Assembly (NCBI GenBank): GCA_000002445.1 | Contig: CM000208.1 | Coordinates: 1,728,001-1,792,000, forward strand | Origin: Trypanosoma brucei | Taxonomy: Eukaryota | Reading direction: 5' to 3' | Length of the DNA stretch: 64,000 bases | Part shown: positions 38,401 to 64,000 of the stretch, piece by piece | Layout of the letters: each line of letters opens with the position of its first letter | How positions within the stretch are numbered: the first letter of the stretch is position 1 | The notes under the pieces: generated by a model | What the model was told of the DNA's origin: nothing | Database searches by the model: none | The model's input: the letters and a program-made list of their open reading frames with translations, nothing else | Made by a program: the position numbers and the translations under genes

Positions 38401-39594
38401 TATATATAAGAGAAACGGAAGGACAAAGTTGATAGTTATGATGTTTTTAAAAAAAAAAGAAAAGTTAACTTTCCTCCGTTTATTTCATATTTACACAAAT
38501 GACCATTATGCACCAGTTATACAGCATCAGAAAGAGAAAAGGGGAAAGGAAATAAATAAGGAAGGGAGGTACTCATGTCTGTTTTATGTTTTGTGCATTT
38601 GTATGTATGACTGTGCGTAGTTGCACACATTTTCTTCCTCCTTTCTTTCTTTTTATTTATTTGTTTGTTTCTTTCTTTCTCATCATTTGAATGGTGGTAA
38701 GAAGGTTATATGGGGGAGGAAAACAAAAAAATATATTTATATCTACATCCATACCTATATTTATTAAATTCCACATGCAGACACATATGTATATATAAAA
38801 ATGAGAGTGTTTAGAGACGGCGCATTTGTCACTGATCTCTCACGCTCTGATTTGAGATATGTTTTGCTTTTCATCTTCTCGCCTCTTCGTCCTTCTTTTC
38901 CTTGTTTTGTCTCTATCTTCTATCTTAATATCATTGTTTTTTTGTTTTTTTTTTAGAAATGAAGCCTTCAAAACAAAACAAAAAGCAATGATTATGTTAT
39001 GTTCTAACTTAGTTTCATTTAGATGAATATACGCGACATGTTCACAACGCATGGAAAAGTTGCTGAAGTAAACAGCATGGAAATCATGTGTATAATCGCG
39101 GAGGCGAAGTTGCGCGGAGGGAACAAGGGAAATGCATTGAATTAATATTATAAAAGCAACAGGAGATGTAAAAATATTTAAAAAAAAAAAGAAACAAAGT
39201 CACCAGTGAAATGGTTCTGATGCATGACGTTAAGGTGGATTTCATCACTCACAGGCTGTGTTAGTTTGTGTTATTTATCTTTAGATTTCAGGAATTATTT
39301 TCACTGAGAAGTCGAGTAAAATGAATGAATGACTTAATGAAAAGAGCTGGACTTCAATTCTCCCTCCAACCCTTAATGTTTTCAGTACTATTTCCTTTCG
39401 TTCTCTTCCTGCTGCTGCTATGCCCTTTTTTTTTAATTTTCTTGAACCTTCGTTTTGGATCAATCTATTTAAGCGAAAGACTTTCTCTAAGGTGGGACGC
39501 GTTTCCTATAAAAAGAAATAAAATTAACGAAAATAAAAAGAAGGAGGGTTGCGTGGTCTAAAGGTTCAGAAAAGGGGAAATTAAGGCATAGCAA
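35471..39594. repeat. A 4.1-kb AT-rich, low-complexity region with no genes. It is packed with homopolymer runs, (GT)n, (CA)n, (GA)n and (AAT/TTG)n microsatellites, and alternating homopurine/homopyrimidine blocks.
   Basis: Seen directly: (GT)12 at 35566..35589, (GA)8 at 36644..36659, (CA)10 at 36700..36719, and G10 at 37339..37348. All ORFs called here are F/L/K-rich low-complexity artefacts. Confidence 0.85.
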
Positions 39595-40860
39595 ATGAGT
39601 TCGGTAAAGAGTAAAGGTTCAAGTTGTTCCACAGCTGATGTTGTGCGCATCGATGGAATATATTACGATACGGCAAAACTTGCAGCAATTCATTGCGGTG
39701 GCCCAACGATGGTAAATATGGCAAATGGTACGGATTGCACACGTGTATTCCTCAGCTACCACCGTCGTCGGTTTCCCCACGAAAAATACAAGTCGCTGCA
39801 GGTTTCACCTTCGGATGTGTTGGATGGTGCGGTCACCGATGAACCCGACACTACAAACTTTGATAAATATTTGGACTTGTGCTCACTGATACGTCCCGTC
39901 ATTGCCCCGACTGGAGGCTTTGCACCATGGCATTATTTCATCAAGACGTTATTTTGGTGCAGTCTTGTTTTCTTCTTGGATATTTATGCCATATTTGCCT
40001 TTAGGTCCTTATACCTCACTATCATCCAATCATTAGCCATGGCAATGGTGGGACTTAATGTGCAGCATGATGCCAATCACGGCGCTATTAGCCGCTACCC
40101 GCTCATTAACACAATTTTTGGACTCACTCAAGACATATTGGGTGGAAGCCGCATCAGTTGGATCATTCATCATGATTTCATTCATCACGTGTACACAAAC
40201 GAACCTCATCATGACTTGGATCTGGATATTCCCTTATTGAGACTTCATCGCTTCGTTCCCAAGCGGCTGTGTTATGCATTTCAGCATATTTATTTTCTTC
40301 TTCTAGAGGCCGTGTTTGGGCCTGTTCATGTTATATCCAGCATGAAATTTGTTTGGCAGGGTCCCACTACGAAACAGCGGTTCCTGCAGCGAGAGTGGAC
40401 AATGAGCCGAATTTTGACACTTATTCCACCACTGCGTCTTGCCCTTAACATTCTTCACGCGCCAACGCTCCTCCATGCATTAATCTCGACATTCCTGCAA
40501 TATGCAATTGGCGGAATGTACCTCGCTTTCTTTTTCCTCATTTCCCACAACTTCCATGGAGTGAGGAAAGACGGAACTGAGGTGGGGGAGTGTTTTGTGA
40601 AGGCGCAAGTGGAAACAAGTAGTAGTGTTGGTGGTTGGTGGCTGGCACAGCTTAATGGTGGGCTAAACTACCAAATAGAACATCATTTATTCCCCCGTGT
40701 GCACCATAGTTATTACCACTACCTTGCTCCTATTGTGCGGGATTACTGTACGAAACTCGGTATTTCGTACACACGCTTCGATACCGTGTTGGATAACGTC
40801 GTGAGCACCTCTAAACACCTCGCCCAGTTCGGAAAAGGCATAGAAGACAAACGGTTGTGA
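39595..40860 (+). CDS. Front-end-type membrane fatty-acid desaturase (delta-4/5/6-like, QxxHH third histidine box), 421 aa, with an N-terminal cytochrome-b5-like region.
   Basis: ATG at 39595. Histidine boxes HDANHG, HHDFIHH and QIEHHLFP. Several predicted TM helices. Confidence 0.8.
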   Translation: MSSVKSKGSSCSTADVVRIDGIYYDTAKLAAIHCGGPTMVNMANGTDCTRVFLSYHRRRFPHEKYKSLQVSPSDVLDGAVTDEPDTTNFDKYLDLCSLIRPVIAPTGGFAPWHYFIKTLFWCSLVFFLDIYAIFAFRSLYLTIIQSLAMAMVGLNVQHDANHGAISRYPLINTIFGLTQDILGGSRISWIIHHDFIHHVYTNEPHHDLDLDIPLLRLHRFVPKRLCYAFQHIYFLLLEAVFGPVHVISSMKFVWQGPTTKQRFLQREWTMSRILTLIPPLRLALNILHAPTLLHALISTFLQYAIGGMYLAFFFLISHNFHGVRKDGTEVGECFVKAQVETSSSVGGWWLAQLNGGLNYQIEHHLFPRVHHSYYHYLAPIVRDYCTKLGISYTRFDTVLDNVVSTSKHLAQFGKGIEDKRL

Positions 40861-49248: not shown

Positions 49249-50754
49249 ATGCCTTACGCCTGCCTCCATGGCGGTTCTCTGTGCTTGTTGATATCGCTGC
49301 TTTCGTGCCTCGGTGCCCAGGCAGTACAAACCCTACACCTTGTGCAGCTTGTCCACCGTCACGGAGCGCGGTCTCCCAAGGTAAAACACAATCAAAGTCA
49401 AATATGCGGTGAGGTGCCGTGTGGGTATCTGAACGCTGCCGGGAAGATGATGCTAGTCAATGCAGGTGAATTTCTTAGGAATCACTACAACAGTAACGCA
49501 TCTGAGCCTTTCTTCCCGGAGGAGAGTTACAACTCCTGTGTGACCTACTCGCGTTCCACAGATGTCCCGCGTACGCTGCAGAGCGCTGGGTGTCTTCTGC
49601 GCGGAATGTTCCCCAATGCGTCGGAATTCTTTCCAGCTATACACACTGCAGATGTGAGTACCGATTGGCTACTGCGTTACGACGTGATACCTCAAGCATA
49701 CGCCTTCAGTCATTTAGATGAGCATTGGTGGAGAAATGTGTGTAACCCAAAGCTGGACACGCTTATCGACACCAACACGTTGTTATCCGTTTCGCGGGAG
49801 GTGTTCAGTGAAGGGTTCTGCGCTGATCCACAAAACCGGTGCCATTGCGCGGCGACGCTGTTCGACATTGGTGTCGCCATGCAGTCCGACGGTCGCATCG
49901 ATAAACACCCACTTTTGAGGGAAAATCTCGGCCGGTTGCGCGATATCAAGTTCTTTGAGGATTCTCACCGATTTGTTTACAACGCCTCTGATCGTACGCA
50001 CGCAAAGATGGGGAGTTTGGGGCAGCACCTTGCTCAGGAAATTTTGAAAAATGCGGAGAATCATATGAATGGACTAACGTCGTACAAACTCTATCACTAC
50101 AGCGCACATGACACAACGATAGCACCACTGGCTGCGACACTCGGGGACAGCACAACCACTGGAATCACGCCACCTTACGGTCAGCTGTATGCTTTTGAAC
50201 TGCTGTACGACCACGAAGTTAAAGGGTATATTATTCGGATAAGGCGCGGTGCGCCAGGTCAGAAACCCGAGGAAGGCTATGCATTTAGTTGGGGAGAGTT
50301 TCAGATGAAATGCATGAACGAAAACCACACTGTTTACACAGCTGAGGACAACAAGTGCCCTTACCACGACTTCCGGCGGTTCGTGAAATCCACCAAACCG
50401 CATGATCCCGCGGGACTTTGTTATCTCAACCGGAGGTACCGCGAGCTTTTCCACTGCCCGGGAAATGTTGGAAAACCACCTAATAAGCAGTGCAAAGTCT
50501 TTCGGCGTGTGTGTCCAGCGTGGTCCTGCGAAGAAGGTTACACGTTGAACAGTGTTACCTTAGAGTGCGTGTGCAGTTCCAGGAAATGTATGGAGAATCG
50601 TGACCTGAGCATCAGCACTGACACACTTGGCAGGAATCTTTTCACCATCTTCATCTTTGTGCTCTTGGCACTTCTCATCCCTATTTTTTCCGTATTCGTG
50701 TGCATCGGTAAAAAATTGCGGGCACGAACCCGCAGAACGAGGGCGAAGGGCTAG
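49249..50754 (+). CDS. Membrane-bound histidine acid phosphatase (type I membrane protein: signal peptide, luminal phosphatase domain, C-terminal TM plus a short basic tail).
   Basis: The track start at 49123 is TTG; the first ATG is 49249 (MPYACLHGGSLCLLISLLSCLGAQA). RHGxRxP motif in LVHRHGARSPK. C-terminal TM LFTIFIFVLLALLIPIFSVFVCIG followed by KKLRARTRRTRAKG. It is a paralogue of the 19266 gene. Confidence 0.8.
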   Translation: MPYACLHGGSLCLLISLLSCLGAQAVQTLHLVQLVHRHGARSPKVKHNQSQICGEVPCGYLNAAGKMMLVNAGEFLRNHYNSNASEPFFPEESYNSCVTYSRSTDVPRTLQSAGCLLRGMFPNASEFFPAIHTADVSTDWLLRYDVIPQAYAFSHLDEHWWRNVCNPKLDTLIDTNTLLSVSREVFSEGFCADPQNRCHCAATLFDIGVAMQSDGRIDKHPLLRENLGRLRDIKFFEDSHRFVYNASDRTHAKMGSLGQHLAQEILKNAENHMNGLTSYKLYHYSAHDTTIAPLAATLGDSTTTGITPPYGQLYAFELLYDHEVKGYIIRIRRGAPGQKPEEGYAFSWGEFQMKCMNENHTVYTAEDNKCPYHDFRRFVKSTKPHDPAGLCYLNRRYRELFHCPGNVGKPPNKQCKVFRRVCPAWSCEEGYTLNSVTLECVCSSRKCMENRDLSISTDTLGRNLFTIFIFVLLALLIPIFSVFVCIGKKLRARTRRTRAKG

Positions 50755-51532
50755 TGCATTGTTGTTTTGTGTTTGTGTGTATGTGTTTCCGTTTGGGGAT
50801 GACGGGGCATTTGTAGACCAGGGAAGCCGCAGTATGATACTGGTATCTGACTGTTCTGATGCATGTGGTTTGTCCGCTGCTTTCCTCCGTTTAGTCCGGC
50901 TCCGTTCGACCTCAAGCTCCTCATGCAAAGAACGTAACTGCCGAATACCGTAGACGCTTAGTTCCTCCGGTGGATGCAGTGTAAAAATCGGACCAACAAC
51001 CAGTGATATAACAAATCCCCACCATCTTCCTCTGGGACTGGCCTGTTGTAAATAAGTTTGTTTGCGTGAATTTTTTTGACCTTGTGCGGTAATCACGTGA
51101 GGCCCTGGGAGAAGGGTGACCCTTCCTCTACACCCTCAGGCCTGAAAGAAAGTGCTCTCCTGAAGGGCAAATTGCTCGCACTAAGCACATAAAACCCTCT
51201 GTTTGCGTTTTCTCACTGTGCATAAAGTGGAAGGGATATGTGTTCAGCGAAGTGATGAGACTTCGCCAATGTTTGGGCGTATGTTTGATATGTGTTGCTC
51301 GGGCCCCTCCCCCCACGGTGCTGGCCGGTCATTTTTTTTTGTTGGCGGACGCCAGCACTGCAGCGGAGAGGTGCCGATGCGCTGTATCTCTTTTGTGCGG
51401 CTTCATGGAAGTTACGACCGAAATAACCGGAAAGGAAACTCCAACTCACCGCCGTCGCGTTGGCCGCAAGACGGTCGTGTCGTGTTTCTCCTAACATTCG
51501 CGTCTCGGTACTATCGGCGGGGCAGCCGGCGC
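50755..51532. promoter_or_regulatory. Convergent strand-switch region. The + cluster ends at 50754 and the - cluster ends at 51533, so this is the presumptive Pol II termination zone.
   Basis: Gene orientation flips here. There is no long ORF, and no tRNA gene was detected in or near it. Confidence 0.7.
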
Positions 51533-51754
51533 TCATGCATGTAGCCTCGCAACTCCACGGAGCAGTTGGACTTCCTCGAGTTTTCTGTCAGCCTCCATGA
51601 GTTTCTGCTCGACGAAACCGTGCACAGCCTTTAGTTTTTTTGAGGTATTACATAACGCTTTTATTGCGGACAATTTCAAAGCTGCCCCAGCGTCCGCATG
51701 ATGACAACAACCACTTACTAACGCCACTACTAAAAATGCCACTGTTCTTCGCAT
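51533..51754 (-). pseudogene. Truncated copy B of a signal-peptide protein gene (73 codons from ATG: MRRTVAFLVVALVSGCC..., then a stop). It is paralogous to the decayed copy A upstream.
   Basis: The ATG at 51754-51752 was verified. Its N-terminal region aligns with copy A: CCHHADAGAALKLSAIKALCNTSKKLKAVHGFVEQK against CHFAFADSGALSLSGAAEALRNASGKLKSVYAFVQAK. Confidence 0.6.
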
Positions 51755-51806
51755 TTGCTGAAGAAAACAAAAGATGCCTGGCACCTGCAACCCACTAAGT
51801 TTTCCC

Positions 51807-53000
51807 TTAAACCACACAAACTAAGAAATACGAATTTAAAACAACCAAAAATAACAACGCGAGGGTCCTCCTGAGAGAGTCAGCCCTGCCAACACCACAT
51901 ATCGCCATCTCCTCCAACAGCTTCTCCTCTTGCACCGTTTCTCTGTTCCCGAGCACGACGAATGACTTCCCACTATCCTCATCTACCACTACTGTGCTTT
52001 TATTTCCGTGGGTGCCCGTGTTCACAATAGCTTGCGCGTATTCCCAGTTCCAGTGTGCGCCGGTTTCGTGCGCCAGCTCTTCGATGTGAGTATACAAGTT
52101 CACAAATTTGCGAAGCTCTCGGTAGGCGTTTCTAAGAACGGGGACGTTGTTAACGGGGTCTTCCTCCCAAGTTACATCGTGTATTAGAACCTCTGCACGG
52201 GTTTTTCCTGTCCCCCCAACGAATCCTCTTCCACTTCGTTTAAGGGAAATAATTCTATCTCCCCAGAGTATTCCTCTGGAGGTGCTGTTTTCGGAGAGGT
52301 AGCCGCCCCCGGACGGGTGTTTGTTAGGTGGCAGTTTGCGCTGTGGACGTAGCGTTCCAAGGGGTTTCCACCGCCACCAGTGAGCCTAAGCAATTCGTTC
52401 ATACTCTCCCGTGTCATGTTCATTTCCTCCACCCTTTCCATGCGGTGCATACCCCCCAAAGAAATAAATTCATCCTTCTCCGAGTCACTTAAATAGCAAT
52501 TCAACAACTGATTCCGCGTCGCGTGGTGCTCGCTATTTCCTACGCAAAAATCCCCTTTCCCACTGGAATACGCGCGCCGCCACACATTTATCATTTCATC
52601 CAACCTCCCCGCCGCTATCCCTGCTGCCCCTACCGCTGAGTATCCAAGATATCTCAACCTCTTCAATTCTCTCCTCTTCACCCTATTCACTTTACTCCCC
52701 ACACGTTTCAAAAACTTCGCGATCCCCGTGCACGAGGTCCAATTGCTATTTCCCCCTTCATTTCCCCTAACCTTCACAATCTTCAACCTCACCAACTCCA
52801 CCATATCCTCAAACTCCCTCACCTTCTCGGTTGCATACTTAGTTTTCGCTTGGACGAAGGCATACACCGATTTCAACTTCCCCGACGCATTACGGAGCGC
52901 TTCCGCAGCTCCACTCAAACTCAGTGCGCCACTGTCCGCAAAAGCAAAATGACAAAGAGAAAAATACAACGACTAGCGCATCCACGCGTCGATGAACTTT
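51807..53000 (-). pseudogene. Decayed copy A of the same gene. A signal-peptide-like segment (HRRVDALVVVFFSLSFCFC, no ATG) sits in one frame. The 261-codon body (52969..52184) sits in a second frame. A 98-codon segment (52103..51807) ending in a hydrophobic C-terminal tail (LALLFLVVLNSYFLVCVV) sits in a third. This is the layout of a secreted or GPI-anchored surface-protein relic.
   Basis: The track 'M' starts are TTG or GTG, and no ATG precedes the signal peptide. Three frames are needed to read it through, so there are at least two frameshifts. Confidence 0.55.
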
Positions 53001-56000
53001 ACTCTTGGCGGAAGGGGCGGGGGAAGGGGAAGTGAATAAGTTGTTAGTGGGCCTGTGAAGAAAAAAAATCAGTAATTTGACATGCCTTCTTTCCAGAACC
53101 GGCTGGCTTGTCTTTTCATATGGCGGTGCAACTACCGCGGCAATATTGGTGGGGGAGGGGAGATGCAATGAGATTGTTATTCCACTTTCAAACTTGGTGC
53201 ACAACCCTCGCAAGAAAACCTGGTTCCGCCTTACCAAAGCTGGGCACGGCATGCTCGACACAAAGACTAGTGATAATCGGCACGGGTGTGAATCGGTGCG
53301 GTGAGGTGTTGAGTCCGCTCACTCGCCCACATCGCGCAGTTGAATGCGGCGTGAAATGGCACTTTGATGGGGAAATGGGACTTCCCAACGTCAGAAGCCG
53401 AAATAAGATTATCAGAACAGAAATTATTCCACTCGGGCGTAGCAGTGCACGGGGGATGCAACGCACCCTTATGGATCTTGAAACAGACAACGGTCAACCA
53501 GCAGCGGGCCGCCTCCAACGTATGGATCGGAGTGTGCGTCAACAGAATTTACTTGTGCCATTACGAGCTTAGATCGCCCGCGTAAGGGGGAAATTGTTGG
53601 GAAATTTGCCCACAAATACGTACCCGCGGGCTTCGGAGGGGATCTTATCGCCTCCTAAGAGGTGGGACGTTATGGATGAATCCCTTCGGGAGCCGAATAG
53701 CGTGGCTGTGGCGGTGGAAAACCCACGGTGGAAACGGGCTGCCGCCACATCTCTGGGGACGAGCCTTGCAAGGCGCGTGGGTTACGGGAGATAAAGATTG
53801 CCAAGCCGAAAAGGGCGCACAGAAACAGTGCCATATGGCGGTGGGTGGTGCGGAACCTCGAAACCAAAAGCGGCCGAATCAGCAGGTTAGAATTTGACAC
53901 AGTGCTTACTCCAAGCTCTCTTAAACTTGATTGCAGTACCCGACAAACAACCGTTAGCAGGGAGGCATCAGGGGAATTGCCCTTCAGGGATGAGCAGCGC
54001 GAAGCCCGAAAACATGCCGAAAGATCCAATGATGGAACCACCGGGAACGGGGAATCGTAAGCCGAAGCCCTTGGCCTTGGCCTTAGGGAGGGGGGGGTTA
54101 AAGTTAACGGTAAATGAATTTTGTACAGGAGCCGCGCCCTTGGGAAATATACACTAAGGGGATTTGCAGAAGGTCTGTGGGAAAGGGAGGCTGCGCTTGC
54201 TGGGCTTTGTGACCACCTCACCGAAAGCACTGTCACACAATGAAAAGCGGGAGATGGTCATTATAATGCCAATCTTGGTGTCAAAACATGATGAAACGCC
54301 AATAGCAACCTGCAGTGGCCCTCGGCAGCACCATCCAAGGCGCGTCCCACAGCAATGCCCAGTGCGGCACGCCCATCCACTTCAAATATCACCTATCGCT
54401 AAGAGTGGCGGGATACCGTCACCAAATGTTTCCACCACTCCTAAAATACTGTGTTGCGATTTCGAAGTGGGGCAGCCAAGCAAGCGTTGAAGATATATCG
54501 ATGGAAAAAAGAAAGGGGCGTCGGCGGTTAGGTGATGTCCGCTACCGCAGCGCCCACGGCATCCGAGGGGAAGCGCAGTTGCCACAACCACGGCGCACGA
54601 CTCCGCGTAGTTCAATCCGACCTCTGAACATTCCACTATGTGCCAGGGGCAAGTGGGGGTAAAAAAGATACCAAGGACGACAGAGTAACCTGGATATGCC
54701 TGAATCCCTTCCCTAAACGCGCAAACTGACTGTGCAGTCCTGAAAACAGCAACACCGCACACGCCACGCACGGAGGAACGCAACACCACCCCAGGTTGGT
54801 TGATCAAACAAACAGGAAAGCAACATTCCGGGTGTTCGAAAGGAAAGCGAGAGAGCGACCACCAACTGGCGCCAAGGCTGCCGGAGAACAACAAAATCTC
54901 TCCGGGTTGTTAAAGCAGTTGGGGTGGAAGCAATAGTGAGAGGCGATACCGGAAGTGCTAGGCCCTTAAAGAATCCGGTACTATCCGAACAACAGGTTGC
55001 AGGAAATAACGGAAATTGGTGCACGAATGTGGCTGGCGGAATGGGGAACATATCTGCATGCAGATACGGATGCTGCACACCAAAAATAGATGGCCGAGCA
55101 ACACACCGCCACCAAATACATAGAACGCAAGCATGGCCACAACCTACAAAAGCAGCGCAACTCCCTTAAGTTTGAGTCCGAGGAATTTTCTCTACACCTT
55201 CCCCCGCTCCAACTCCCAAGGGCATTGCATGCAGAATGTGAAGTGGATACCGTCGTAACAGTTGGAATTAGTAGCTCAGGAGGGTTATCAAAGTTGAATA
55301 ATGATCACCCGCGATGATTTTGCAAGCCATTCCGTTGTATTGATCCCACCAAAACTGTCGGTGTGAGCAATGCCGTACCAACGCATTGGTCTATACACTA
55401 TACCTTCACTTTCCAACATATATTAAAAGGGCCAAGAAAAATTAGGCGCAGAGTGGGGGGATTTTTCCCACGACGGAAACTCCAACTGAACCACCATACA
55501 AGCGGTTGCACGAAAAGTGCGACGTGTGAAGCAGAGGCGACGGTTGCAGCACCAGCACGCATGGGCGACGCTGAAGTCTTCGGTTATCACTCGTTTGTGT
55601 TTACCCGTAAAGCGCCAAGCAGATTATAGGGGTTAAGTTTCTATTTCCCGATGTTCCCCCCACTAAACCGCTCACTGGCCCCCAAATTGAAAACTTTCCC
55701 TCCTTAATTACATGTTGCATCTATCGTGTTTTAGGGTTCTCAGCAGGGTCAATGCCGCTTGCGAAAACTACTTCATCAGTCTAAATACGGTACGCTTCAG
55801 AGAAAACACGATGACACAGACAAACTATGGTCTAAAAATATTTAGAAAAAAGGATAAAGAATAAGGGCTTCTGGAATGACGACGGCAGTGGAGCGTTCTC
55901 CTATTTTCCAACAAACACTCGGCCAAAAGTGAAATTATTCCCGCAATAGTTGAAATTGCTCACGAAGAATCATATGTTTGTAAAAGAAAAAATGTATGTA

Positions 56001-56393
56001 TATATATAGATAAATATAATTATTGTTATTCATACGTGCGCACTCGTACATAAATGTACTGCTAATACCTACAACACATCCAAACAGAAATGCAATAATC
56101 CCAACTCGAGTACGAAGCGGAGCAACGCTCACACAACTTCGTCCCCCATACCGTTTGTGGGAACCAGTGGCACGTCACATGTGTTCACTCCCTGTTCTGT
56201 ACATGCAGAACTGTTAAATCTCAATGAGTACATGTTTACCTGATGAAAAGAAAAAACTGGGCTCAAAGACTACGAAAAAAAAATAGGTAAATAAACTCCC
56301 TCCCGATCGATCACAACATAATAAATCTTCGAAAAAAAAAACTTTCCCCCTTACCGGTCCCCTTTCATCCGGTTAAAACAAAAAACTATAGCT

Positions 56394-59300
56394 TTACGGT
56401 TTCGCTTCATCTGAGGATTGAGTTACGGGTACGGCAAAAGATGCATCAGATAAGCATCGTGGCACCTCCTCCATCATAACCTCGTTGTCGCATATGACAA
56501 CCGCGTTCTGGCGTTCCCTTCCCAAAAATAAAACTGCCGACAGCCCCACCGCCAGTAACAAAAACGTGGAACCAACCAAAAGCAGCAATCCCGCACTGAC
56601 GCTCGATCCTTTCCCCTTTGCATTCGAGAACTTGGGGGAATCCTCAGTAGAGCATCCATCACAGAATGCAACAAGCTTTAACGAACACGAAGATTTCAAG
56701 AACATTCCGTCAGTCCCGTCCGCTGCATCGCTTACCTCCGTATCATTGCAGTCACCTGTGATGTCGCAATCATCAGTTTCATTGCAGTCACCTGTGATGT
56801 TGCAATCATCAGTTTCATTGCAGTCACCTGTGATGTCGCAATCATCGGTTTCATTGCAGTCACCTGTGATGTTGCAATCATCGGTTTCATTGCAGTCACC
56901 TGTGATGTTACAATCATCGGTTTCATTGCAGTCACCTGTGATGTCGCAATCATCGGTTTCATTGCAGTCACCTGTGATGTTGCAATCATCGGTTTCATTG
57001 CAGTCACCTGTGATGTTACAATCATCGGTTTCATTGCAGTCACCTGTGATGTCGCAATCATCGGTTTCATTGCAGTCACCTGTGATGTTACAATCATCGG
57101 TTTCATTGCAGTCACCTGTGATGTTGCAATCATCGGTTTCATTGCAGTCACCTGTGATGTTGCAATCATCGGTTTCATTGCAGTCACCTGTGATGTTGCA
57201 ATCATCGGTTTCATTGCAGTCACCTGTGATGTTGCAATCATCGGTTTCATTGCAGTCACCTGTGATGTCGCAATCATCGGTTTCATTGCAGTCACCTGTG
57301 ATGTTGCAATCATCGGTTTCATTGCAGTCACCTGTGATGTCGCAATCATCGGTTTCATTGCAGTCACCTGTGATGTTACAATCATCGGTTTCATTGCAGT
57401 CACCTGTGATGTCGCAATCATCGGTTTCATTGCAGTCACCTGTGATGTCGCAATCATCAGTTTCATTGCAGTCACCTGTGATGTTGCAATCATCGGTTTC
57501 ATTGCAGTCACCTGTGATGTTGCAATCATCGGTTTCATTGCAGTCACCTGTGATGTTACAATCATCGGTTTCATTGCAGTCACCTGTGATGTCGCAATCA
57601 TCGGTTTCATTGCAGTCACCTGTGATGTTGCAATCATCGGTTTCATTGCAGTCACCTGTGATGTCGCAATCATCGGTTTCATTGCAGTCACCTGTGATGT
57701 CGCAATCATCAGTTTCATTGCAGTCACCTGTGATGTTGCAATCATCGGTTTCATTGCAGTCACCTGTGATGTTGCAATCATCGGTTTCATTGCAGTCACC
57801 TGTGATGTTACAATCATCGGTTTCATTGCAGTCACCTGTGATGTTGCAATCATCGGTTTCATTGCAGTCACCTGTGATGTTGCAATCATCGGTTTCATTG
57901 CAGTCACCTGTGATGTTGCAATCATCAGTTTCATTGCAGTCACCTGTGATGTTGCAATCATCAGTTTCATTGCAGTCACCTGTGATGTTGCAATCATCAG
58001 TTTCATTGCAGTCACCTGTGATGTTGCAATCATCAGTTTCATTGCAGTCACCTGTGATGTTGCAATCATCAGTTTCATTGCAGTCACCTGTGATGTTGCA
58101 ATCATCGGTTTCATTGCAGTCACCTGTGATGTTGCAATCATCGGTTTCATTGCAGTCACCTGTGATGTTGCAATCATCAGTTTCATTGCAGTCACCTGTG
58201 ATGTCGCAATCATCAGTTTCATTGCAGTCACCTGTGATGTCGCAATCATCGGTTTCATTGCAGTCACCTGTGATGTTGCAATCATCAGTTTCATTGCAGT
58301 CACCTGTGATGTCGCAATCATCGGTTTCATTGCAGTCACCTGTGATGTTGCAATCATCGGTTTCATTGCAGTCACCTGTGATGTTGCAATCATCAGTTTC
58401 ATTGCAGTCACCTGTGATGTCGCAATCATCGGTTTCATTGCAGTCACCTGTGATGTTACAATCATCGGTTTCATTGCAGTCACCTGTGATGTCGCAATCA
58501 TCGGTTTCATTGCAGTCACCTGTGATGTCGCAATCATCGGTTTCATTGCAGTCACCTGTGATGTTGCAATCATCGGTTTCATTGCAGTCACCTGTGATGT
58601 TGCAATCATCGGTTTCATTGCAGTCACCTGTGATGTTGCAATCATCAGTTTCATTGCAGTCACCTGTGATGTTGCAATCATCAGTTTCATTGCAGTCACC
58701 TGTGATGTCGCAATCATCGGTTTCATTGCAGTCACCTGTGATGTTGCAATCATCGGTTTCATTGCAGTCACCTGTGATGTTGCAATCATCAGTTTCATTG
58801 CAGTCACCTGTGATGTCGCAATCATCGGTTTCATTGCAGTCACCTGTGATGTTGCAATCATCGGTTTCATTGCAGTCACCTGTGATGTCGCAATCATCAG
58901 TTTCATTGCAGTCACCTGTGATGTTGCAATCATCAGTTTCATTGCAGTCACCTGTGATGTTGCAATCATCAGTTTCATTGCAGTCACCTGTGATGTCGCA
59001 ATCATCAGTTTCATTGCAGTCACCTGTGATGTCGCAATCATCGGTTTCATTGCAGTCACCTGTGATGTTGCAATCATCAGTTTCATTGCAGTCACCTGTG
59101 ATGTCGCAATCATCGGTTTCATTGCAGTCACCTGTGATGTCGCAATCATCGGTTTCATTGCAGTCACCTGTGATGTTACAATCATCGGTTTCATTGCAGT
59201 CACCTGTGATGTCGCAATCATCGGTTTCATTGCAGTCACCTGTGATGTTGCAATCATCAGTTTCATTGCAGTCACCTGTGATGTCGCAATCATCGGTTTC

Positions 59301-59840
59301 ATTGCAGTCACCTGTGATGTTGCAATCATCAGTTTCATTGCAGTCACCTGTGATGTCGCAATCATCGGTTTCATTGCAGTCACCTGTGATGTTGCAATCA
59401 TCAGTTTCATTGCAGTCACCTGTGATGTCGCAATCATCGGTTTCATTGCAGTCACCTGTGATGTTACAATCATCGGTTTCATTGCAGTCACCTGTGATGT
59501 CGCAATCATCGGTTTCATTGCAGTCACCTGTGATGTTGCAATCATCGGTTTCATTGCAGTCACCTGTGATGTTGCAATCATCGGTTTCATTGCAGTCACC
59601 TGTGATGTTACAATCATCAGTTTCATTGCAGTCACCTGTGATGTTACAATCATCGGCGTAACCCGTAGCGTTCTTGTAGTCGAAGAAGAAATCATCATGT
59701 ACGGCATCAGCAGGGGGTGTGGCTACCTCAGCATTTGATTCTTCAAAGATTGGACCTGCCTCGTTAGCCATGCCAGGCACACACGCGGTGCTGGTGAATA
59801 AGACGGTCATAAACAAAGGAATGTAGTATTTGGCGGACAT
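56394..59840 (-). CDS. CRAM: CRAM: cysteine-rich, acidic, repetitive type-I membrane protein, a procyclic-stage flagellar-pocket putative lipoprotein receptor. It has a signal peptide, about 81 copies of a 12-aa repeat, a TM and a cytoplasmic tail.
   Basis: ATG at 59840-59838. N-terminal MSAKYYIPLFMTVLFTSTACVPG. The repeat CNETDDC(N/D)ITGD is 36 bp per unit. C-terminal TM AGLLLLVGSTFLLLAVGLSAVLFLG followed by a ~40-aa acidic tail. This matches the published description of T. brucei CRAM. Confidence 0.9.
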   Translation of the reverse strand: MSAKYYIPLFMTVLFTSTACVPGMANEAGPIFEESNAEVATPPADAVHDDFFFDYKNATGYADDCNITGDCNETDDCNITGDCNETDDCNITGDCNETDDCNITGDCNETDDCDITGDCNETDDCNITGDCNETDDCDITGDCNETDDCNITGDCNETDDCDITGDCNETDDCNITGDCNETDDCDITGDCNETDDCNITGDCNETDDCDITGDCNETDDCNITGDCNETDDCDITGDCNETDDCDITGDCNETDDCNITGDCNETDDCDITGDCNETDDCDITGDCNETDDCNITGDCNETDDCNITGDCNETDDCDITGDCNETDDCNITGDCNETDDCDITGDCNETDDCNITGDCNETDDCNITGDCNETDDCDITGDCNETDDCNITGDCNETDDCNITGDCNETDDCNITGDCNETDDCNITGDCNETDDCDITGDCNETDDCDITGDCNETDDCNITGDCNETDDCDITGDCNETDDCNITGDCNETDDCNITGDCNETDDCDITGDCNETDDCNITGDCNETDDCDITGDCNETDDCDITGDCNETDDCNITGDCNETDDCNITGDCNETDDCNITGDCNETDDCNITGDCNETDDCNITGDCNETDDCNITGDCNETDDCNITGDCNETDDCNITGDCNETDDCNITGDCNETDDCNITGDCNETDDCNITGDCNETDDCNITGDCNETDDCNITGDCNETDDCDITGDCNETDDCDITGDCNETDDCNITGDCNETDDCDITGDCNETDDCNITGDCNETDDCNITGDCNETDDCNITGDCNETDDCDITGDCNETDDCDITGDCNETDDCNITGDCNETDDCDITGDCNETDDCNITGDCNETDDCDITGDCNETDDCNITGDCNETDDCNITGDCNETDDCNITGDCNETDDCNITGDCNETDDCNITGDCNETDDCDITGDCNETDDCNITGDCNETDDCNITGDCNETDDCDITGDCNETDDCNITGDCNETDDCNITGDCNETDDCDITGDCNETDDCNITGDCNETDDCDITGDCNDTEVSDAADGTDGMFLKSSCSLKLVAFCDGCSTEDSPKFSNAKGKGSSVSAGLLLLVGSTFLLLAVGLSAVLFLGRERQNAVVICDNEVMMEEVPRCLSDASFAVPVTQSSDEAKP
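56745..59655. repeat. A 36-bp tandem repeat array of ~81 units that encodes the CRAM 12-aa repeat. The units differ at a few positions (aac/gac giving N/D; atcggt/atcagt silent).
   Basis: Seen directly: near-perfect periodicity of 36 bp over ~2.9 kb. Confidence 0.95.
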
Positions 59841-60374
59841 TGCCCTGTTTAAGAATAGCGTTAACTTGTGTCGCGAAAGCTCCTTGGGATGAGGAGGTAG
59901 GGGAAAGGAGAGATTTAGAACATTGGAGAGGACGCAAAGTGAATTCGGGCTTCAAGAGGCGCAGGATGGAAAAAAGAGTCAGAACATCGAGCGACAGCAT
60001 GGTGGTGAAATCTTTCAAACAAACTCACCCTTTTAAGGCACATACCTTATCCGTTTCTTCCCCCACCGTTGAGGCCACTGAAGCTTCTCCGCACTGCCAC
60101 ACTTGCAACAAAGGTGCCGTACACAAAACAAGTTGAAGGGAGAATTGACCGTGGACCACAAAAAATGTCTGAGAATTCCAATCGATGTGGCTCACGTCGA
60201 ACCCCAACACCGGAAGAAACGATCCCCAAAGAGAAGCCTAGCAGGCAAAGTCTTTTTATCAACCCCCATCCGGCCAGCTCTTCAATCAGTCTGAGAATAT
60301 GAGGTATATTTATCTGCTGAGCATGCGACAGGAGGATTGTGGAAGCACCACGCGGTACTGACGCTTGACGAGTG

Positions 60375-60830
60375 TCACTTATTTCGGCTGTCCAGCACAA
60401 GCGTCACTGGGCCATCGTTGGTCATATTGATATTCATGTAGGATTGGAATCGCCCTGTCGATATTTTGTGAGCCGCATAGTCCCTGCAAAGAGCCTCACG
60501 CAAGTTGTTAAACAGTTCAGATGCTCTCTCTGGCTTCATTGCCAGGTGGAAGTCGGGTTTATTTCCCTTAAGTACGTGCATGAGAGTAAATTGTGACACG
60601 AGAAGAATTCCGCCGTCCACCTGCTTCACATTACGGTCCCACGTTTTCTGCCCATCCTCACTACGCCATATGCGAAGCGACAGCAGTTTGTGGGCAATGT
60701 AGTCCACATCGCTCATATCATCTTCGTGGTGTATGCCCACCAACGCCACAATTCCACGCCCAACACTACCAACAACCTCCTCACCAACCGTTACGGCACC
60801 CTCCAGAACACGCTGAACGACAACTCTCAT
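60375..60830 (-). CDS. DTD: D-aminoacyl-tRNA (D-tyrosyl-tRNA(Tyr)) deacylase.
   Basis: ATG at 60830-60828. 151 aa with the MRVVVQRV N-terminus, the SQFTL motif and the NDGPVT C-terminal motif characteristic of DTD. Confidence 0.88.
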   Translation of the reverse strand: MRVVVQRVLEGAVTVGEEVVGSVGRGIVALVGIHHEDDMSDVDYIAHKLLSLRIWRSEDGQKTWDRNVKQVDGGILLVSQFTLMHVLKGNKPDFHLAMKPERASELFNNLREALCRDYAAHKISTGRFQSYMNINMTNDGPVTLVLDSRNK

Positions 60831-61671
60831 ACGTGACGCTTAAAACACGCCCCACATATACACCCCAATACACGTCCGCACATTTGAAAGGGGGAAAAAA
60901 GCAGAAGTGCACATTTCACACACGATTTAGTGGCAGGGAAGGAGGAAAAATAAAATCAACTACATACACATATAGCCATGTGAAACCCGTTTTAATATTG
61001 AGAATAATATCAACAATAATAATGGTAACAAATAGTAGTAGTGATGAAAATGGCCCCTCGCCGTCATGCATCGGCGAAACCTCTCATTGATATCCCAATG
61101 GGTTAACTCCCTTACCACCGGTGACGGAAAAGCAATTTCCCCACGCAAGTTTCAGACCAGCTGCAGACGAGGCCAACCCCTTCCTTAATCCTCAGTTCAA
61201 TCAGTGAAATCAGTTCACCGTTGCGTACCAAACCAGTAGAATTAAGAATCGCCACTGACCAAAACACGCACACAAAAAACCCAAATGGTTTGAGCGGCCG
61301 GCAGTGAGTGAGCCAACAAGAGGTCTCTGTGGATAATGCAAGCGCGCGAAAACCACCAATCAGATTAAGAGGTTGCGCCCATACCGTCAGCTGGGCTCTA
61401 CTCCGCCTCCCTCTATAGGTCCATAGTTGATAGTGTGGAAAGGGAATCTGTCACAGTGCCTCGGGTTTCCCGCAACACCAAACACGCACCTACGCTTAGG
61501 TGTAGTTGCGCTCAACCGCACCTCACACGGAACCGAAACGTGAGAAGAGGAACAGTCAACACATGATGGGGAATTTCCAAAGAAAACGGAGAGATCAGAT
61601 ACGGTAAATGCCCACAATAGCAACAGCAGCAATCAGGGATGAAGCCAATGGTGGTCCACGAGCTCCAAATC

Positions 61672-64000
61672 CTACGAAGCCTGCTGCTGTTCAAGCACGG
61701 CATGGAGCGTCTCAAAACCCTTCAGTTCGCGCAGTCGCTCCCGCTGCGACTCCACCGTGCAGCAACGGGACAATGCGATAGCAACGTTCTTCTGTGCTGC
61801 ACGCGCATGGCACCACTGCGGTGTACCATTTTTTCCTTCATGCTCCAACGAAAACAGGGACGCCCGCACCTTACGAAGGCTCTCCAACAAAACATCGACG
61901 CCGCGAAGTGCCACGTAGTGCTCACATCCTGCAGGTGGAACAAAGGAACAAATAAGAGCAGCATTACCAACCGCCACCGCGTGTCGGTCTCCCCCCAGTT
62001 GGACGACACGCAGCAAAGCGCGAACCCGCTCGAGCTCCCATAAGCCTTCCACACTCGAGAGAAGCTTCTTTGAATAGAACCCCGCAAGCAACGTTGTGGT
62101 GTGCTCCACAACTTCCCATAGCGCAGACGGTTTAGCCTCCGAACCCTCGCTGTCCACTGCGAGTCCATCCCTTTTCGCTTCAGCTTCATATATCTCCACT
62201 GCGTCGCCTCCAAGTATGGAGAGCGCGGAATCGAGCATCGACCACAGCGTACCTTCATCCTTCAATATGGCATCACGGAGTGAGTCGTCGAAAGGAGAAA
62301 ACTTTGAAAGAACCCCCGTCATTTTAGAACAAACGGTCGCTCTCTCCGTCGAGACTCCACCGGATTGGGCTCGGTCGCGCAGCACGTACCAAGCACAGAG
62401 TGCAAAGTGCATTTTGCCATTACCAGTTTCAACCATCGTGTCGCACCATTGCTTCACATAATCTCGCCGAGACTCCGCCTGCAGGAACAAATTGTACACA
62501 AGAGCAAATAACCCCTCTTCCGCCCGAGCTGACAAAGGGGCTGACGCACAAACCTTTGGGGGCGGCAGCATTTGAGCGAGAGCACACGTGAAACTGGACG
62601 TGGACATCGCTTTTGCGCACGTATGGTTTGTACATGACACACGGACGGCCAGTGACAGTCCTACTTCCTTCAGCAGCGTGGGCCCTGCCGTGAGAGCTGC
62701 GTCAACCACACGCACGCCAATTTTTTCTAGCGTCGGTGTCATTGCTTTTGCGACGACCTCTACTTTTAGGAGCGCCTCTAGAAGCCCACAAAGAAAGTAG
62801 AGTGGCTGCGGAGCAGGACGACCCCCTCTCAACACACTTTCCGATATTTTCTCCATTACTGGACCACAAGGAGTGTGAACTTCATTGGGAAAGCGCGTGG
62901 CTAAGCCTTCCAGAGCCTGGAGCAACCCAGACACAAGCGATAAACAAGTCTCTATATTTACCCCTCGAGCTGCTCCCTTGTCCATGCCTTCAACAGCTTC
63001 AACTAAAACTGCCGTTAGGTTGTTTGCCATTTCGTGAATACTTGAAGGCTCCAACTCATCTGCACATGCCTCACTTCCAACCAAAACAAGAGACAAGAGT
63101 CGAAGGGAAGCAAACAAGACCATTCCCTCAGGCGACATGTCTTTGGCACCCGCGGCACAAACAACACCGAAACGTTCTTCTGCACTACCAGAAAGCAGAC
63201 CGAGAATCAGCTCCGTCAACGAGTCCATTCCATCACGGAGAGCGAACAGGACCGCTGCGCCGAGATGAAAACACTGAACGACTTTCAGGCAGCGGCAGAC
63301 GGCCTTCAAAACCCGTATCATACACTTCCTCTTACGACCTTGCTTTTCCGCAACATTTTCTCTGTTTTCCTCACTACTCGCCTCACTCACATTCGGTAAC
63401 TCCTTCACGGCGGCAATGAGATCACATGTCGCATTAGACAGCTGTTCCGCGTCTCCTGAATAATGATGCTGGAAGGCAGCACAGCGTTCATGTTCACTCT
63501 TTATTCGCCGCAACCACTGAGCAAGATCCGCTGCCTCTTGATTTGAAACATCTTTCTGGAGCGCCGCTTCAGCATCTCGCAGCGCATCCAGCGGCCTGCG
63601 CAGATGTCTTAGCGCTGTGGCGCGCCGCAACAGAGCCTTCACATTCGTTGGCTCCTCGCGTAAAACATAGCTTGCGTCTTCCACAGCATCCAAGTAGCGT
63701 TTCAACTTCAGCTGAACAAGAGCGCGGTTGTTGTGCAGCGTAACCTGCAGTGACGCATCCACCACATTCAACCCAATGGCATTGGAGTACAATTTAAAGG
63801 CAGTTTCCCAATCAGAAGCTCTCACAGCCTTCGCCGCCTCCTCCTTCATTCGTAGTGCCTCATCCAAAGAGACCCTTTCCGCCCGGCTAAATAATGCTTC
63901 ATCCTTATTACAGTTCTTGCCTTTACCCTTGCAAGTGGGACCATCGGTTTCTTTCAACAGTGTATCAATAAATTCATCGTTCTCAAAACGCGAGTAGTAA
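61672..64000 (-). CDS. TPR-repeat protein. It is 5'-truncated by the window edge: the reading frame stays open through 64000, and the track start at 63957 is TTG.
   Basis: TPR-like helical repeats near the N-terminal end (AFKLYSNAIGL...HNNRALVQLKLKRYLDAVEDASYVLREEPTNVKALLRRATALRHL). A long ORF of more than 760 codons. Confidence 0.6.
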   Translation of the reverse strand, partial: YYSRFENDEFIDTLLKETDGPTCKGKGKNCNKDEALFSRAERVSLDEALRMKEEAAKAVRASDWETAFKLYSNAIGLNVVDASLQVTLHNNRALVQLKLKRYLDAVEDASYVLREEPTNVKALLRRATALRHLRRPLDALRDAEAALQKDVSNQEAADLAQWLRRIKSEHERCAAFQHHYSGDAEQLSNATCDLIAAVKELPNVSEASSEENRENVAEKQGRKRKCMIRVLKAVCRCLKVVQCFHLGAAVLFALRDGMDSLTELILGLLSGSAEERFGVVCAAGAKDMSPEGMVLFASLRLLSLVLVGSEACADELEPSSIHEMANNLTAVLVEAVEGMDKGAARGVNIETCLSLVSGLLQALEGLATRFPNEVHTPCGPVMEKISESVLRGGRPAPQPLYFLCGLLEALLKVEVVAKAMTPTLEKIGVRVVDAALTAGPTLLKEVGLSLAVRVSCTNHTCAKAMSTSSFTCALAQMLPPPKVCASAPLSARAEEGLFALVYNLFLQAESRRDYVKQWCDTMVETGNGKMHFALCAWYVLRDRAQSGGVSTERATVCSKMTGVLSKFSPFDDSLRDAILKDEGTLWSMLDSALSILGGDAVEIYEAEAKRDGLAVDSEGSEAKPSALWEVVEHTTTLLAGFYSKKLLSSVEGLWELERVRALLRVVQLGGDRHAVAVGNAALICSFVPPAGCEHYVALRGVDVLLESLRKVRASLFSLEHEGKNGTPQWCHARAAQKNVAIALSRCCTVESQRERLRELKGFETLHAVLEQQQAS

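What the first reader, a model, noticed from the sequence alone, without database searches (positions are those of the whole stretch)
51533..53000. Two decayed tandem copies of a signal-peptide (possible GPI-anchored) surface-protein gene abut the convergent strand-switch region
On the - strand, copy B retains an ATG and a clean signal peptide (MRRTVAFLVVALVSGCC) but stops after 73 codons. Copy A, upstream, has a homologous N-terminus but no ATG (CAC where the start would be). It needs three reading frames to read through and ends in a hydrophobic tail typical of a GPI-addition signal. These are relics of a surface-protein family member sitting at the very end of a polycistron next to a termination zone. 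Lineage-specific surface-gene pseudogenes often sit in this kind of position in T. brucei.
Basis: partly seen in the sequence, partly recalled or inferred. Interest (0 to 1): 0.55.

Follow-up and report, generated by a model that had tools for sequence, protein, structure and literature searches.

The report
Ectopic PAG1–PAG5 copy, PAG1 disabled

Summary
The window is T. brucei brucei TREU927 chromosome 10. Both relics are real, on the − strand, at the end of the polycistron that carries CRAM, facing the MBAP2 polycistron.

They are not tandem duplicates of each other. One contiguous 1,381-bp block (window 52939–51559) is 98.4% identical to the EP/PAG1 procyclin locus. It runs from PAG1 codon 39 to its stop, through the 81-bp spacer, into roughly the first 65 codons of the next gene, inferred to be PAG5. 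The flanks share no homology with that locus.

- **Copy A** is a PAG1 paralogue. Its ATG is present at 52981. In this assembly it carries three lesions: TAG at codon 3, a 1-bp deletion in a G-run, and a 1-bp insertion near the stop.
- **Copy B** is a truncated 5′ fragment, not a decayed full-length gene.
- **Other strains:** the syntenic gene is intact in T. b. gambiense DAL972 (381 aa). In T. b. equiperdum IVM-t1 it is split by a 5.25-kb ingi retroelement.

TREU927 already annotates part of copy A as "PAG1 protein, putative" (EAN78123.1). Haenni et al. 2009 described PAG-like genes at convergent strand-switch regions. Low novelty, low interest.

The parts
51559..52939 (-). 1,381-bp block copied from, or shared with, the EP/PAG1 procyclin locus. 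It covers PAG1 codon 39 to the stop, the 81-bp spacer, and about the first 65 codons of the next gene (PAG5).
   Evidence: A single blastn alignment to Logan contig L003 859–2239: 98.4% identity, 20 mismatches, 2 single-base gaps. It is the only match in the whole 64-kb window. Both boundaries are sharp.
51836..52981 (-). Copy A: a PAG1-like gene, disabled in this assembly. It starts at ATG 52981–52979, and the authentic stop TAA is at 51838–51836. Read in the shifted frame, the ORF runs on to 51807.
   Evidence: 94% identity to PAG1 EAN78417 over 97% of the repaired protein. It is collinear with the intact 381-aa T. b. gambiense gene CBH15785.1 at L001 10001–11146. Its internal 206 aa equal the annotated EAN78123.1 'PAG1 protein, putative'.
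52973..52975 (-). Lesion 1: premature TAG at codon 3. Gambiense and equiperdum have CAG (Gln).
   Evidence: Position 52975 is T in the window and C in L001 and L008.
52306..52310 (-). Lesion 2: 1-bp deletion in a G-run. The window has 5 G; gambiense, equiperdum and procyclin-locus PAG1 have 6. The frame shifts at …TNTRPG|GGYLSEN….
   Evidence: The frame change is visible.
51845..51846 (-). Lesion 3: 1-bp insertion (GG where the others have G) plus an A>G change, 3 codons before the authentic stop. It replaces …LALLFLLF* with …LALLFLVVLNSYFLVCVV*.
51755..51835 (-). 81-bp PAG1–PAG5 spacer, copied along with the genes. It ends in a pyrimidine tract and an AG (…cttttgttttcttcag) just upstream of the copy B ATG.
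   Evidence: Sequence read. It aligns to L003 1963–2043.
51533..51754 (-). Copy B: a 5′ fragment of the PAG5 gene, giving a 73-aa ORF. Homology to PAG5 ends at 51559. The last 8 codons and the stop are unrelated flank.
   Evidence: phmmer against 1.84 billion proteins: 96% identity to residues 1–71 of EAN78416.1 (370 aa), E = 4.6e-34. No PAG5 similarity lies downstream. The breakpoint and stop are the same in gambiense.
53002..53040 (-). Pyrimidine-rich tract followed by AG dinucleotides 21–24 nt upstream of the copy A ATG. This is a putative trans-splice acceptor (inferred).
   Evidence: Read directly. There is no experimental mapping here.
50755..51532 (.). Gap of the convergent strand-switch region, between the MBAP2 stop on the + strand and the end of the PAG5 fragment on the − strand.
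   Evidence: ORF map. Gene identities come from exact protein look-up. No tRNA or Rfam hits fall here.

Best explanation
This is an ectopic, partial copy of the procyclin-locus PAG array.

- **What was copied.** A 1.38-kb segment runs from just after the PAG1 signal peptide, through the PAG1 stop and the 81-bp spacer, into the first ~65 codons of PAG5.
- **How it arose.** The event was a segmental duplication or ectopic recombination. It predates the split of T. b. brucei, T. b. gambiense and T. b. equiperdum, because all three share identical breakpoints.
- **What it created.** The event produced a chimeric gene joining a new 15-residue leader (MRQSLYFSLCHFAFA) to mature PAG1, plus a dead-end PAG5 stub. 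The chimeric gene is still an open 381-aa ORF in gambiense.
- **State in TREU927.** In this assembly it is a pseudogene, with a stop at codon 3, a −1 frameshift and a +1 frameshift. It also carries 11 non-synonymous against 5 synonymous private substitutions, including loss of a cysteine. It can make no PAG1-like protein.
- **State in equiperdum.** In IVM-t1 the same gene was inactivated independently by an ingi insertion.

Shown here: homology, boundaries, lesions and strain comparison. Inferred: the direction of copying, the loss of function, and dispensability. Dispensability is consistent with the report that knocking out all PAG genes gave no obvious abnormal phenotype (Haenni 2006, as cited in PMC4288722).
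For: - The window is TREU927 chr10 by exact protein matches: EAN78113, 78117, 78120 and 78121.
- Repaired copy A is 94% identical to PAG1.
- Copy B is 96% identical to EAN78416.1, the gene next to PAG1.
- One contiguous 1,381-bp alignment at 98.4% identity joins the window to a PAG1–PAG5 contig. It is the only such match in the window. The flanks are unrelated.
- The gambiense syntenic gene is an intact 381-aa ORF next to MBAP2.
- The three lesions are private to TREU927 when compared with gambiense, equiperdum and procyclin-locus PAG1.
- Private substitutions number 11 non-synonymous and 5 synonymous, including Cys>Arg.
- An ingi element with a target-site duplication lies inside the gene in equiperdum.
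- Family placement: Pfam PF00913 above its cut-off, and ESAG7/ESAG6 of PDB 6SOY at E = 2.9e-17 and 6.7e-13.
- Literature: six annotated PAG-like genes, all at convergent strand-switch regions (PMC2731899). PAG copies occur in Pol II units on chr10 (PMC4721609).
Against: - The lesions could not be checked against independent TREU927 reads or the second haplotype (searches found no other record).
- Two of the three lesions lie in short G runs, where sequencing errors are commonest.
- Three of the 'private' substitutions (G>S, A>T, Y>H) are shared with TREU927's own PAG1 protein. Some differences therefore reflect exchange between loci or strain background, not decay.
- The name PAG5 for EAN78416 is inferred from gene order (PMC4288722). 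No record seen here gives it that name.
- The direction of transfer is inferred only from which copy is complete.
Confidence: 0.87

Rival explanations
1. One reading: a local tandem duplication of one surface-protein gene produced two copies, and both then decayed in place.
For: The two pieces are adjacent, on the same strand, and share a homologous N-terminus (40% identity over 57 aa, E = 1e-8).
Against: Each piece is 96–98% identical to a different gene of the procyclin locus. The spacer between them is also copied, all within one collinear alignment. Copy B ends at a homology breakpoint with nothing PAG-like beyond it. That is a truncation, not decay of a full copy.
Confidence: 0.03
2. Copy A is really an intact, expressed PAG1-like gene in TREU927, and the three lesions are assembly errors or belong to only one of two haplotypes.
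For: The gene is intact in gambiense, and intact apart from the ingi element in equiperdum. Two lesions are single-base length changes in G runs. A pyrimidine tract and AG precede the ATG.
Against: One lesion is a base substitution that creates TAG. The allele carries about 16 further private substitutions, mostly non-synonymous. The TREU927-type haplotype of the adjacent flank is reproduced at all 11 variable sites in an independent T. equiperdum OVI assembly, so the divergent allele is real. The reference annotators recorded only a 206-aa fragment.
Confidence: 0.1
3. The block is kept for a DNA- or RNA-level role: PAG1 ORF sequence acts as a transcription attenuator or insulator between the converging CRAM and MBAP2 units. 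Coding capacity would then be irrelevant.
For: Haenni et al. 2009 showed that the PAG1 ORF reduces Pol I-driven reporter expression in both orientations. They also noted that PAG-like sequences cluster at strand-switch regions enriched in H3V (PMC2731899). The block and its breakpoints are retained in three subspecies.
Against: The block is no better conserved than its flanks: about 1.9% against 1.3% TREU927–gambiense divergence. In equiperdum it is split by 5.25 kb of ingi. The authors state that an effect on Pol II is unknown. Most strand-switch regions lack PAG sequences.
Confidence: 0.1
4. The block is a gene-conversion patch laid over an older, diverged PAG-like gene pair that already lay at this site.
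For: The 5′ junction falls exactly at the signal-peptide/mature boundary. Signal-peptide-like hydrophobic sequence lies just upstream in two frames. After the 3′ junction, 4 of 8 residues still match PAG5 (RGVARLHA against QKVVRLKL).
Against: No significant DNA or protein similarity to PAG1 or PAG5 was found in either flank (tblastn E > 0.05; best local DNA alignment is a 35-nt pyrimidine tract). Nothing resembling the remaining 300 codons of PAG5 was found downstream.
Confidence: 0.08

Closest known systems
PAG1 (procyclin-associated gene 1; EAN78417.1 / UniProt Q01889) of the EP/PAG1 procyclin locus, T. brucei chromosome 10
   Same: From codon 39 to the stop the DNA is about 98–99% identical. 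It has the same a-VSG-like / transferrin-receptor-like fold family and the same short hydrophobic C-terminus in the intact gambiense allele.
   Different: It is not in a procyclin (Pol I) unit: the window has no EP or GPEET genes, and it lies downstream of CRAM. It lacks the PAG1 N-terminal 38 residues and the long PAG1 5′ UTR. It is disabled by three lesions in TREU927.
PAG5 (EAN78416.1, 370 aa; the gene immediately downstream of PAG1)
   Same: Copy B matches its first 71 residues at 96% identity. The 81-bp PAG1–PAG5 spacer is also present.
   Different: Only about 196 of 1,113 coding bases are present. The ORF runs into unrelated sequence and stops after 73 codons.
PAG-like genes and sequences at strand-switch regions (Haenni et al. 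2009, PMC2731899), e.g. Tb10.70.1300/1310 and the Tb11.01.6210–6220 cluster (PMC2837033)
   Same: [quoted passage not shown] The locus is annotated 'PAG1, putative'.
   Different: I could not see the paper's Supplementary Table S1, so I cannot confirm that this exact locus is listed. The other clusters described are distinct loci.
ESAG6/ESAG7 transferrin receptor (PDB 6SOY) and a-type VSG N-terminal domain (Pfam PF00913)
   Same: Detectable sequence homology across about 275 residues (E = 2.9e-17 and 6.7e-13). PF00913 scores above its cut-off. Jackson et al. 2013 place PAGs in Fam14, sister to ESAG6/7 Fam15.
   Different: It is a distant paralogue, not an ESAG. It is not in a telomeric expression site, and there is no evidence of transferrin binding.

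Membership tests
PAG family (Fam14, transferrin-receptor-like, a-VSG-derived) | Sequence homology to PAG1/2/4/5 | tested here: met
   Copy A is 94% identical at protein level and 98.4% at DNA level to PAG1. Copy B is 96% identical to EAN78416.
PAG family (Fam14, transferrin-receptor-like, a-VSG-derived) | a-type VSG N-terminal domain signature (Pfam PF00913) and similarity to ESAG6/7 | tested here: met
   PF00913 scores 30.3 bits for the intact gambiense allele, 56.6 for PAG5 and 25.1 for copy B, against a 22.1 cut-off. ESAG7 and ESAG6 of 6SOY match at E = 2.9e-17 and 6.7e-13.
Procyclin-associated gene in the strict sense | Lies downstream of EP/GPEET procyclin genes in a Pol I transcription unit | tested here: not met
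   No EP, GPEET or DP repeat coding sequence occurs anywhere in the 64-kb window. The upstream gene is CRAM. It is therefore 'PAG-like', not procyclin-associated.
Functional protein-coding gene (TREU927 allele) | Uninterrupted ORF from start to stop | tested here: not met
   TAG at codon 3, a −1 shift at 52310–52306 and a +1 shift at 51846. The ORF is uninterrupted in gambiense.
GPI-anchored surface protein | N-terminal signal peptide plus a C-terminal GPI-addition signal (omega site, spacer, hydrophobic tail) | not testable with these tools
   No signal-peptide or GPI predictor was available. The gambiense leader MRQSLYFSLCHFAFA|D fits the −3/−1 rule by eye. The authentic tail LALLFLLF has only 8 hydrophobic residues. 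The longer tail in the window is a frameshift artefact.
Local tandem duplicate pair | The two copies are each other's closest relatives | tested here: not met
   Copy A and copy B are 40% identical over 57 aa. Each is 96–98% identical to a different procyclin-locus gene.
   Database searches returned only PAG proteins and T. congolense 'transferrin receptor-like, PAG-like' proteins. Pfam gave only PF00913 above its cut-off.

The most novel reading that the evidence does not exclude
The PAG1-derived block is retained at this convergent strand-switch region because the PAG1 ORF sequence itself, on either strand, attenuates or terminates transcription. It would insulate the CRAM and MBAP2 units from each other, and coding decay would then be irrelevant. 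This extends the Pol I silencing activity shown for PAG1 by Haenni et al. 2009 to a Pol II termination zone.
Probability: 0.1. Interest if true: 0.45.

Novelty: already known. Interest (0 to 1): 0.15.

Why it matters
It matters little. The locus is already annotated as a putative PAG1 fragment in TREU927 and as a full PAG1-like gene in T. b. gambiense. The clustering of PAG-like genes at convergent strand-switch regions was published in 2009.

The additions made here are small:
- The downstream "copy" is a PAG5 stub, carried in the same 1.38-kb segment as the PAG1 copy.
- The same gene is intact in gambiense, point-mutated in TREU927 and ingi-disrupted in equiperdum.

This illustrates that the ectopic PAG copy is dispensable and turns over. 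It also gives a clean natural allelic series, should anyone wish to test whether PAG1 sequence influences termination at strand-switch regions.

Tried and rejected
- **Procyclin genes in the window:** none found, so this is not the procyclin locus itself.
- **Word-indexed protein search with copy B:** no hits. The exhaustive phmmer search was needed.
- **Fetching TREU927 DNA for PAG1, PAG5 and the annotated fragment:** no record. A Logan contig from another T. brucei run (L003) and the gambiense loci were used instead.
- **PAG homology in the flanks:**
  - tblastn of PAG1 and PAG5 gave only chance-level hits.
  - A 7-residue LIILFRL match is not supported at DNA level (15 of 21 bases).
  - The best local DNA alignment is a 35-nt pyrimidine tract.
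- **PAG 5′ UTR-like or other PAG-like sequence elsewhere in the window:** none.
The codon is CAT, the similarity is generic hydrophobicity, and the orthologue uses the ATG at 52981.
- **tRNA and Rfam scans of the strand-switch gap:** nothing there. Bacterial promoter and terminator scans are uninformative for a trypanosome.
- **Supplementary Table S1 of Haenni 2009:** not held, so listing of this exact locus is unconfirmed.
- **Old-style gene IDs for the neighbours:** only CRAM (Tb10.6k15.3510) was found.
- **T. equiperdum OVI contig:** it ends 30 bp into the block, so it cannot show whether the lesions are shared.

Full report
**Where the window comes from.**
Exact-sequence look-up of window ORFs returned T. 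brucei brucei TREU927 proteins on a 4,054,025-bp contig, chromosome 10. These are NUP93 (EAN78113), a fatty-acid desaturase (EAN78117), EAN78119, EAN78120 and membrane-bound acid phosphatase 2 (EAN78121, window 49249–50754 +). All long ORFs up to 50754 are on the + strand. From 51533 to 64000 they are on the − strand, and cumulative GC skew turns over at about 50 kb. The finding therefore does sit against a convergent strand-switch region. The gene upstream on the − strand (56394–59840) is CRAM. It has 81 copies of a 36-bp unit encoding …ITGDCNETDDC…, matching "CRAM, Tb10.6k15.3510, 80 × ITGDCNETDDC".

**Checking the observation.**
Copy B is as described. Its ATG is at 51754, it reads MRRTVAFLVVALVSGCCHHADAG…, has 73 codons, and stops at 51535–51533. 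Copy A is a broken reading frame between about 52981 and 51807.

The two N-termini are homologous: 40% identity over 57 aa, E = 1e-8 with composition correction. Copy B alone passes the Pfam gathering score for the a-type VSG domain PF00913. The similarity is therefore not low complexity.

Three details are wrong.
- There is an ATG for copy A, at 52981–52979.
- Only two frames are involved, in three segments.
- The long hydrophobic tail is partly produced by a frameshift.

**What the two pieces are.**
A crude repair of copy A is 94% identical to PAG1 of TREU927 (EAN78417.1, 405 aa) over 97% of its length. The cluster look-up showed two relevant records.
- T. b. gambiense DAL972 has a 381-aa protein, CBH15785.1, annotated next to MBAP2.

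Fetching that gambiense locus (L001) confirmed synteny: PAG1-like gene, about 1.08 kb, then MBAP2 convergent.

Copy B found nothing in the word-indexed search. An exhaustive phmmer search found one strong hit at 96% identity over residues 1–71, E = 4.6e-34. The hit is EAN78416.1, a 370-aa TREU927 protein whose accession is adjacent to that of PAG1. The published order of the locus is EP1/EP2/PAG1/PAG5/PAG2*/PAG4 (PMC4288722). By that order this gene is PAG5, which is an inference from gene order.

**One block, not two copies.**
A 3.1-kb Logan contig carrying PAG1 and the start of the next gene (L003) aligns to the window in a single collinear stretch. Window 52939–51559 (−) equals L003 859–2239, 1,381 bp at 98.4% identity.

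The block starts at PAG1 codon 39, the Ala of …SASA|DSGAL…, essentially the signal-peptide/mature boundary. It runs through the PAG1 stop and the 81-bp spacer, and ends about 65 codons into PAG5. Both edges are abrupt.
- Neither flank shows significant similarity to PAG1, PAG5 or their surroundings.
- It is the only PAG-related sequence in the 64-kb window.

Copy B therefore stops after 73 codons because homology ends 8 codons earlier, not because a full-length gene decayed. The 40% resemblance between copies A and B is the old PAG1/PAG5 paralogy.

In gambiense coordinates the two loci lie about 0.69 Mb apart on chromosome 10, in the same orientation.

**The lesions, and other strains.**
A base-by-base comparison with gambiense over 2.7 kb (98.3% identity) gives exactly three disabling differences in copy A.
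- 52975: C>T, turning CAG into TAG at codon 3.
- 52310–52306: loss of one G from a run of six.
- 51846: one extra G, three codons before the stop.

T. b. equiperdum IVM-t1 (L008) agrees with gambiense at all three sites. It also agrees at nearly all other variable sites. There, however, the gene is split at window 52457–52470 by a 5,252-bp insertion. The insertion encodes endonuclease, reverse transcriptase and RNase H, has a poly(A) end, and is flanked by a 12–14-bp target duplication. It is a full-length ingi element.

Within the block, pairwise differences are as follows.

| Comparison | Substitutions |
|---|---|
| TREU927 vs gambiense | 26 |
| TREU927 vs equiperdum | 25 |
| TREU927 vs procyclin-locus sequence (L003) | 20 |
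| gambiense vs equiperdum | 3 |
| equiperdum vs procyclin-locus sequence (L003) | 9 |
| gambiense vs procyclin-locus sequence (L003) | 10 |

Of the 16 TREU927-private coding changes, 11 are non-synonymous, including Cys>Arg in …AAEALCNAS…. This is as expected without constraint. Three of them (G>S, A>T, Y>H) coincide with TREU927's own PAG1 protein, which hints at exchange between the loci or shared strain background.

An independent T. equiperdum OVI contig carries the TREU927-type haplotype at all 11 variable flank sites. It breaks off 30 bp into the block. The divergent allele is therefore real, but that contig cannot confirm the lesions. No other record of the TREU927 products exists in the collection.

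**Mechanism and function.**
The best-supported account is an ancestral segmental duplication or ectopic recombination. It placed the PAG1(mature)–spacer–PAG5(5′) segment at the end of the CRAM polycistron.

That event created a chimeric gene joining a new leader, MRQSLYFSLCHFAFA, to mature PAG1. A pyrimidine tract and AG lie 21–24 nt upstream of its ATG (inferred to be a trans-splice acceptor). The gene is still open in gambiense, point-inactivated in the TREU927 reference, and transposon-inactivated in equiperdum.

[quoted passage not shown] The PAG5 stub has never been more than a fragment.

**Comparison with what is known.**
PAGs are transferrin-receptor-like, a-VSG-derived genes. They form Fam14, sister to ESAG6/7 Fam15 (PMC3605285).
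- The intact gambiense protein hits ESAG7 and ESAG6 of PDB 6SOY at E = 2.9e-17 and 6.7e-13.
- It scores above the cut-off for PF00913.

Haenni et al. 2009 reported six annotated PAG-like genes, all at convergent strand-switch regions enriched in H3V, plus about 30 PAG-like sequences. They showed that the PAG1 ORF reduces Pol I-driven expression in both orientations, and suggested a role in separating transcription units. Other papers note PAG copies inside Pol II units on chromosome 10 and a different PAG1/PAG2-like cluster at a convergent strand switch.

This locus is therefore a member of the PAG family by sequence, but not "procyclin-associated" by position. It belongs to an already described class. 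I could not see Supplementary Table S1, so I cannot confirm that this exact locus is listed there.

**Rivals.**
- Local tandem duplication is contradicted by the collinear 98% block.
- Assembly error cannot be fully excluded for the two G-run indels. It is unlikely given the TAG substitution and the many private changes.
- A DNA-level insulator role remains possible but is unsupported here. The block is no better conserved than its flanks (about 1.9% against 1.3% divergence), and equiperdum has 5.25 kb of ingi inserted in it.
- A conversion patch over an older PAG-like pair has no support from the flanks.

**Verdict.**
The features are real and the family guess was right, but "two decayed tandem copies" is the wrong description. 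The locus is already annotated and the phenomenon already published. Low interest.

Noticed in passing
L008 13222–18473 (T. b. equiperdum IVM-t1), insertion point = window 52457–52470: A full-length 5,252-bp ingi-type non-LTR retroelement, with endonuclease/RT and RNase H ORFs and a poly(A) end, lies inside the PAG1-like gene. It is in the same orientation as the gene and has a 12–14-bp target-site duplication (CAAAGAAATAAATT). It is absent from TREU927 and gambiense.
   Followed up: partly
window 56394–59840 (−): The CRAM gene, encoding the cysteine-rich acidic membrane protein. It has 81 copies of a 36-bp repeat at 96% identity, so long spurious ORFs appear on both strands. The gambiense assembly calls only 734 aa here, so repeat number differs between assemblies or is collapsed.
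   Followed up: partly
L010 (T. equiperdum OVI contig CZPT02001075.1), end = window 51590: This short-read contig ends 30 bp inside the duplicated PAG block, a sign that the repeat breaks assemblies. Its flank haplotype is identical to TREU927 at all 11 sites where gambiense differs.
   Followed up: yes
window 52747, 52091, 52088: Three substitutions that distinguish the TREU927 ectopic copy from gambiense, equiperdum and L003 give the same residues as TREU927's own procyclin-locus PAG1 protein (S, T, H). In the PAG5 part, four sites group TREU927 with L003 against gambiense and equiperdum. This may be a trace of gene conversion between the two loci.
   Followed up: partly
window 1154–2923 and 10889–12181 (+): Repeated cluster of H/ACA snoRNA genes TB10Cs1H1, H2 and H3: eight Rfam hits at 87–97 bits, in two groups about 9.7 kb apart.
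   Followed up: no
window 36001–40000: A markedly AT-rich stretch (GC 0.31–0.35 against about 0.5 elsewhere) just upstream of the desaturase gene. It contains only poly-T and poly-A runs and no long ORF on the + strand.
   Followed up: partly
L002 (T. b. gambiense EP/PAG locus, FN554973.1 2420299–2441585): The gambiense reference carries the EP/PAG2/PAG4-type procyclin locus, with a PAG1–PAG2 fusion of 428 aa followed by a 373-aa PAG. No PAG1 or PAG5 gene lies in the 21-kb stretch fetched around that locus. The ectopic copy next to MBAP2 is the only PAG1-type ORF I found in that assembly.
   Followed up: partly
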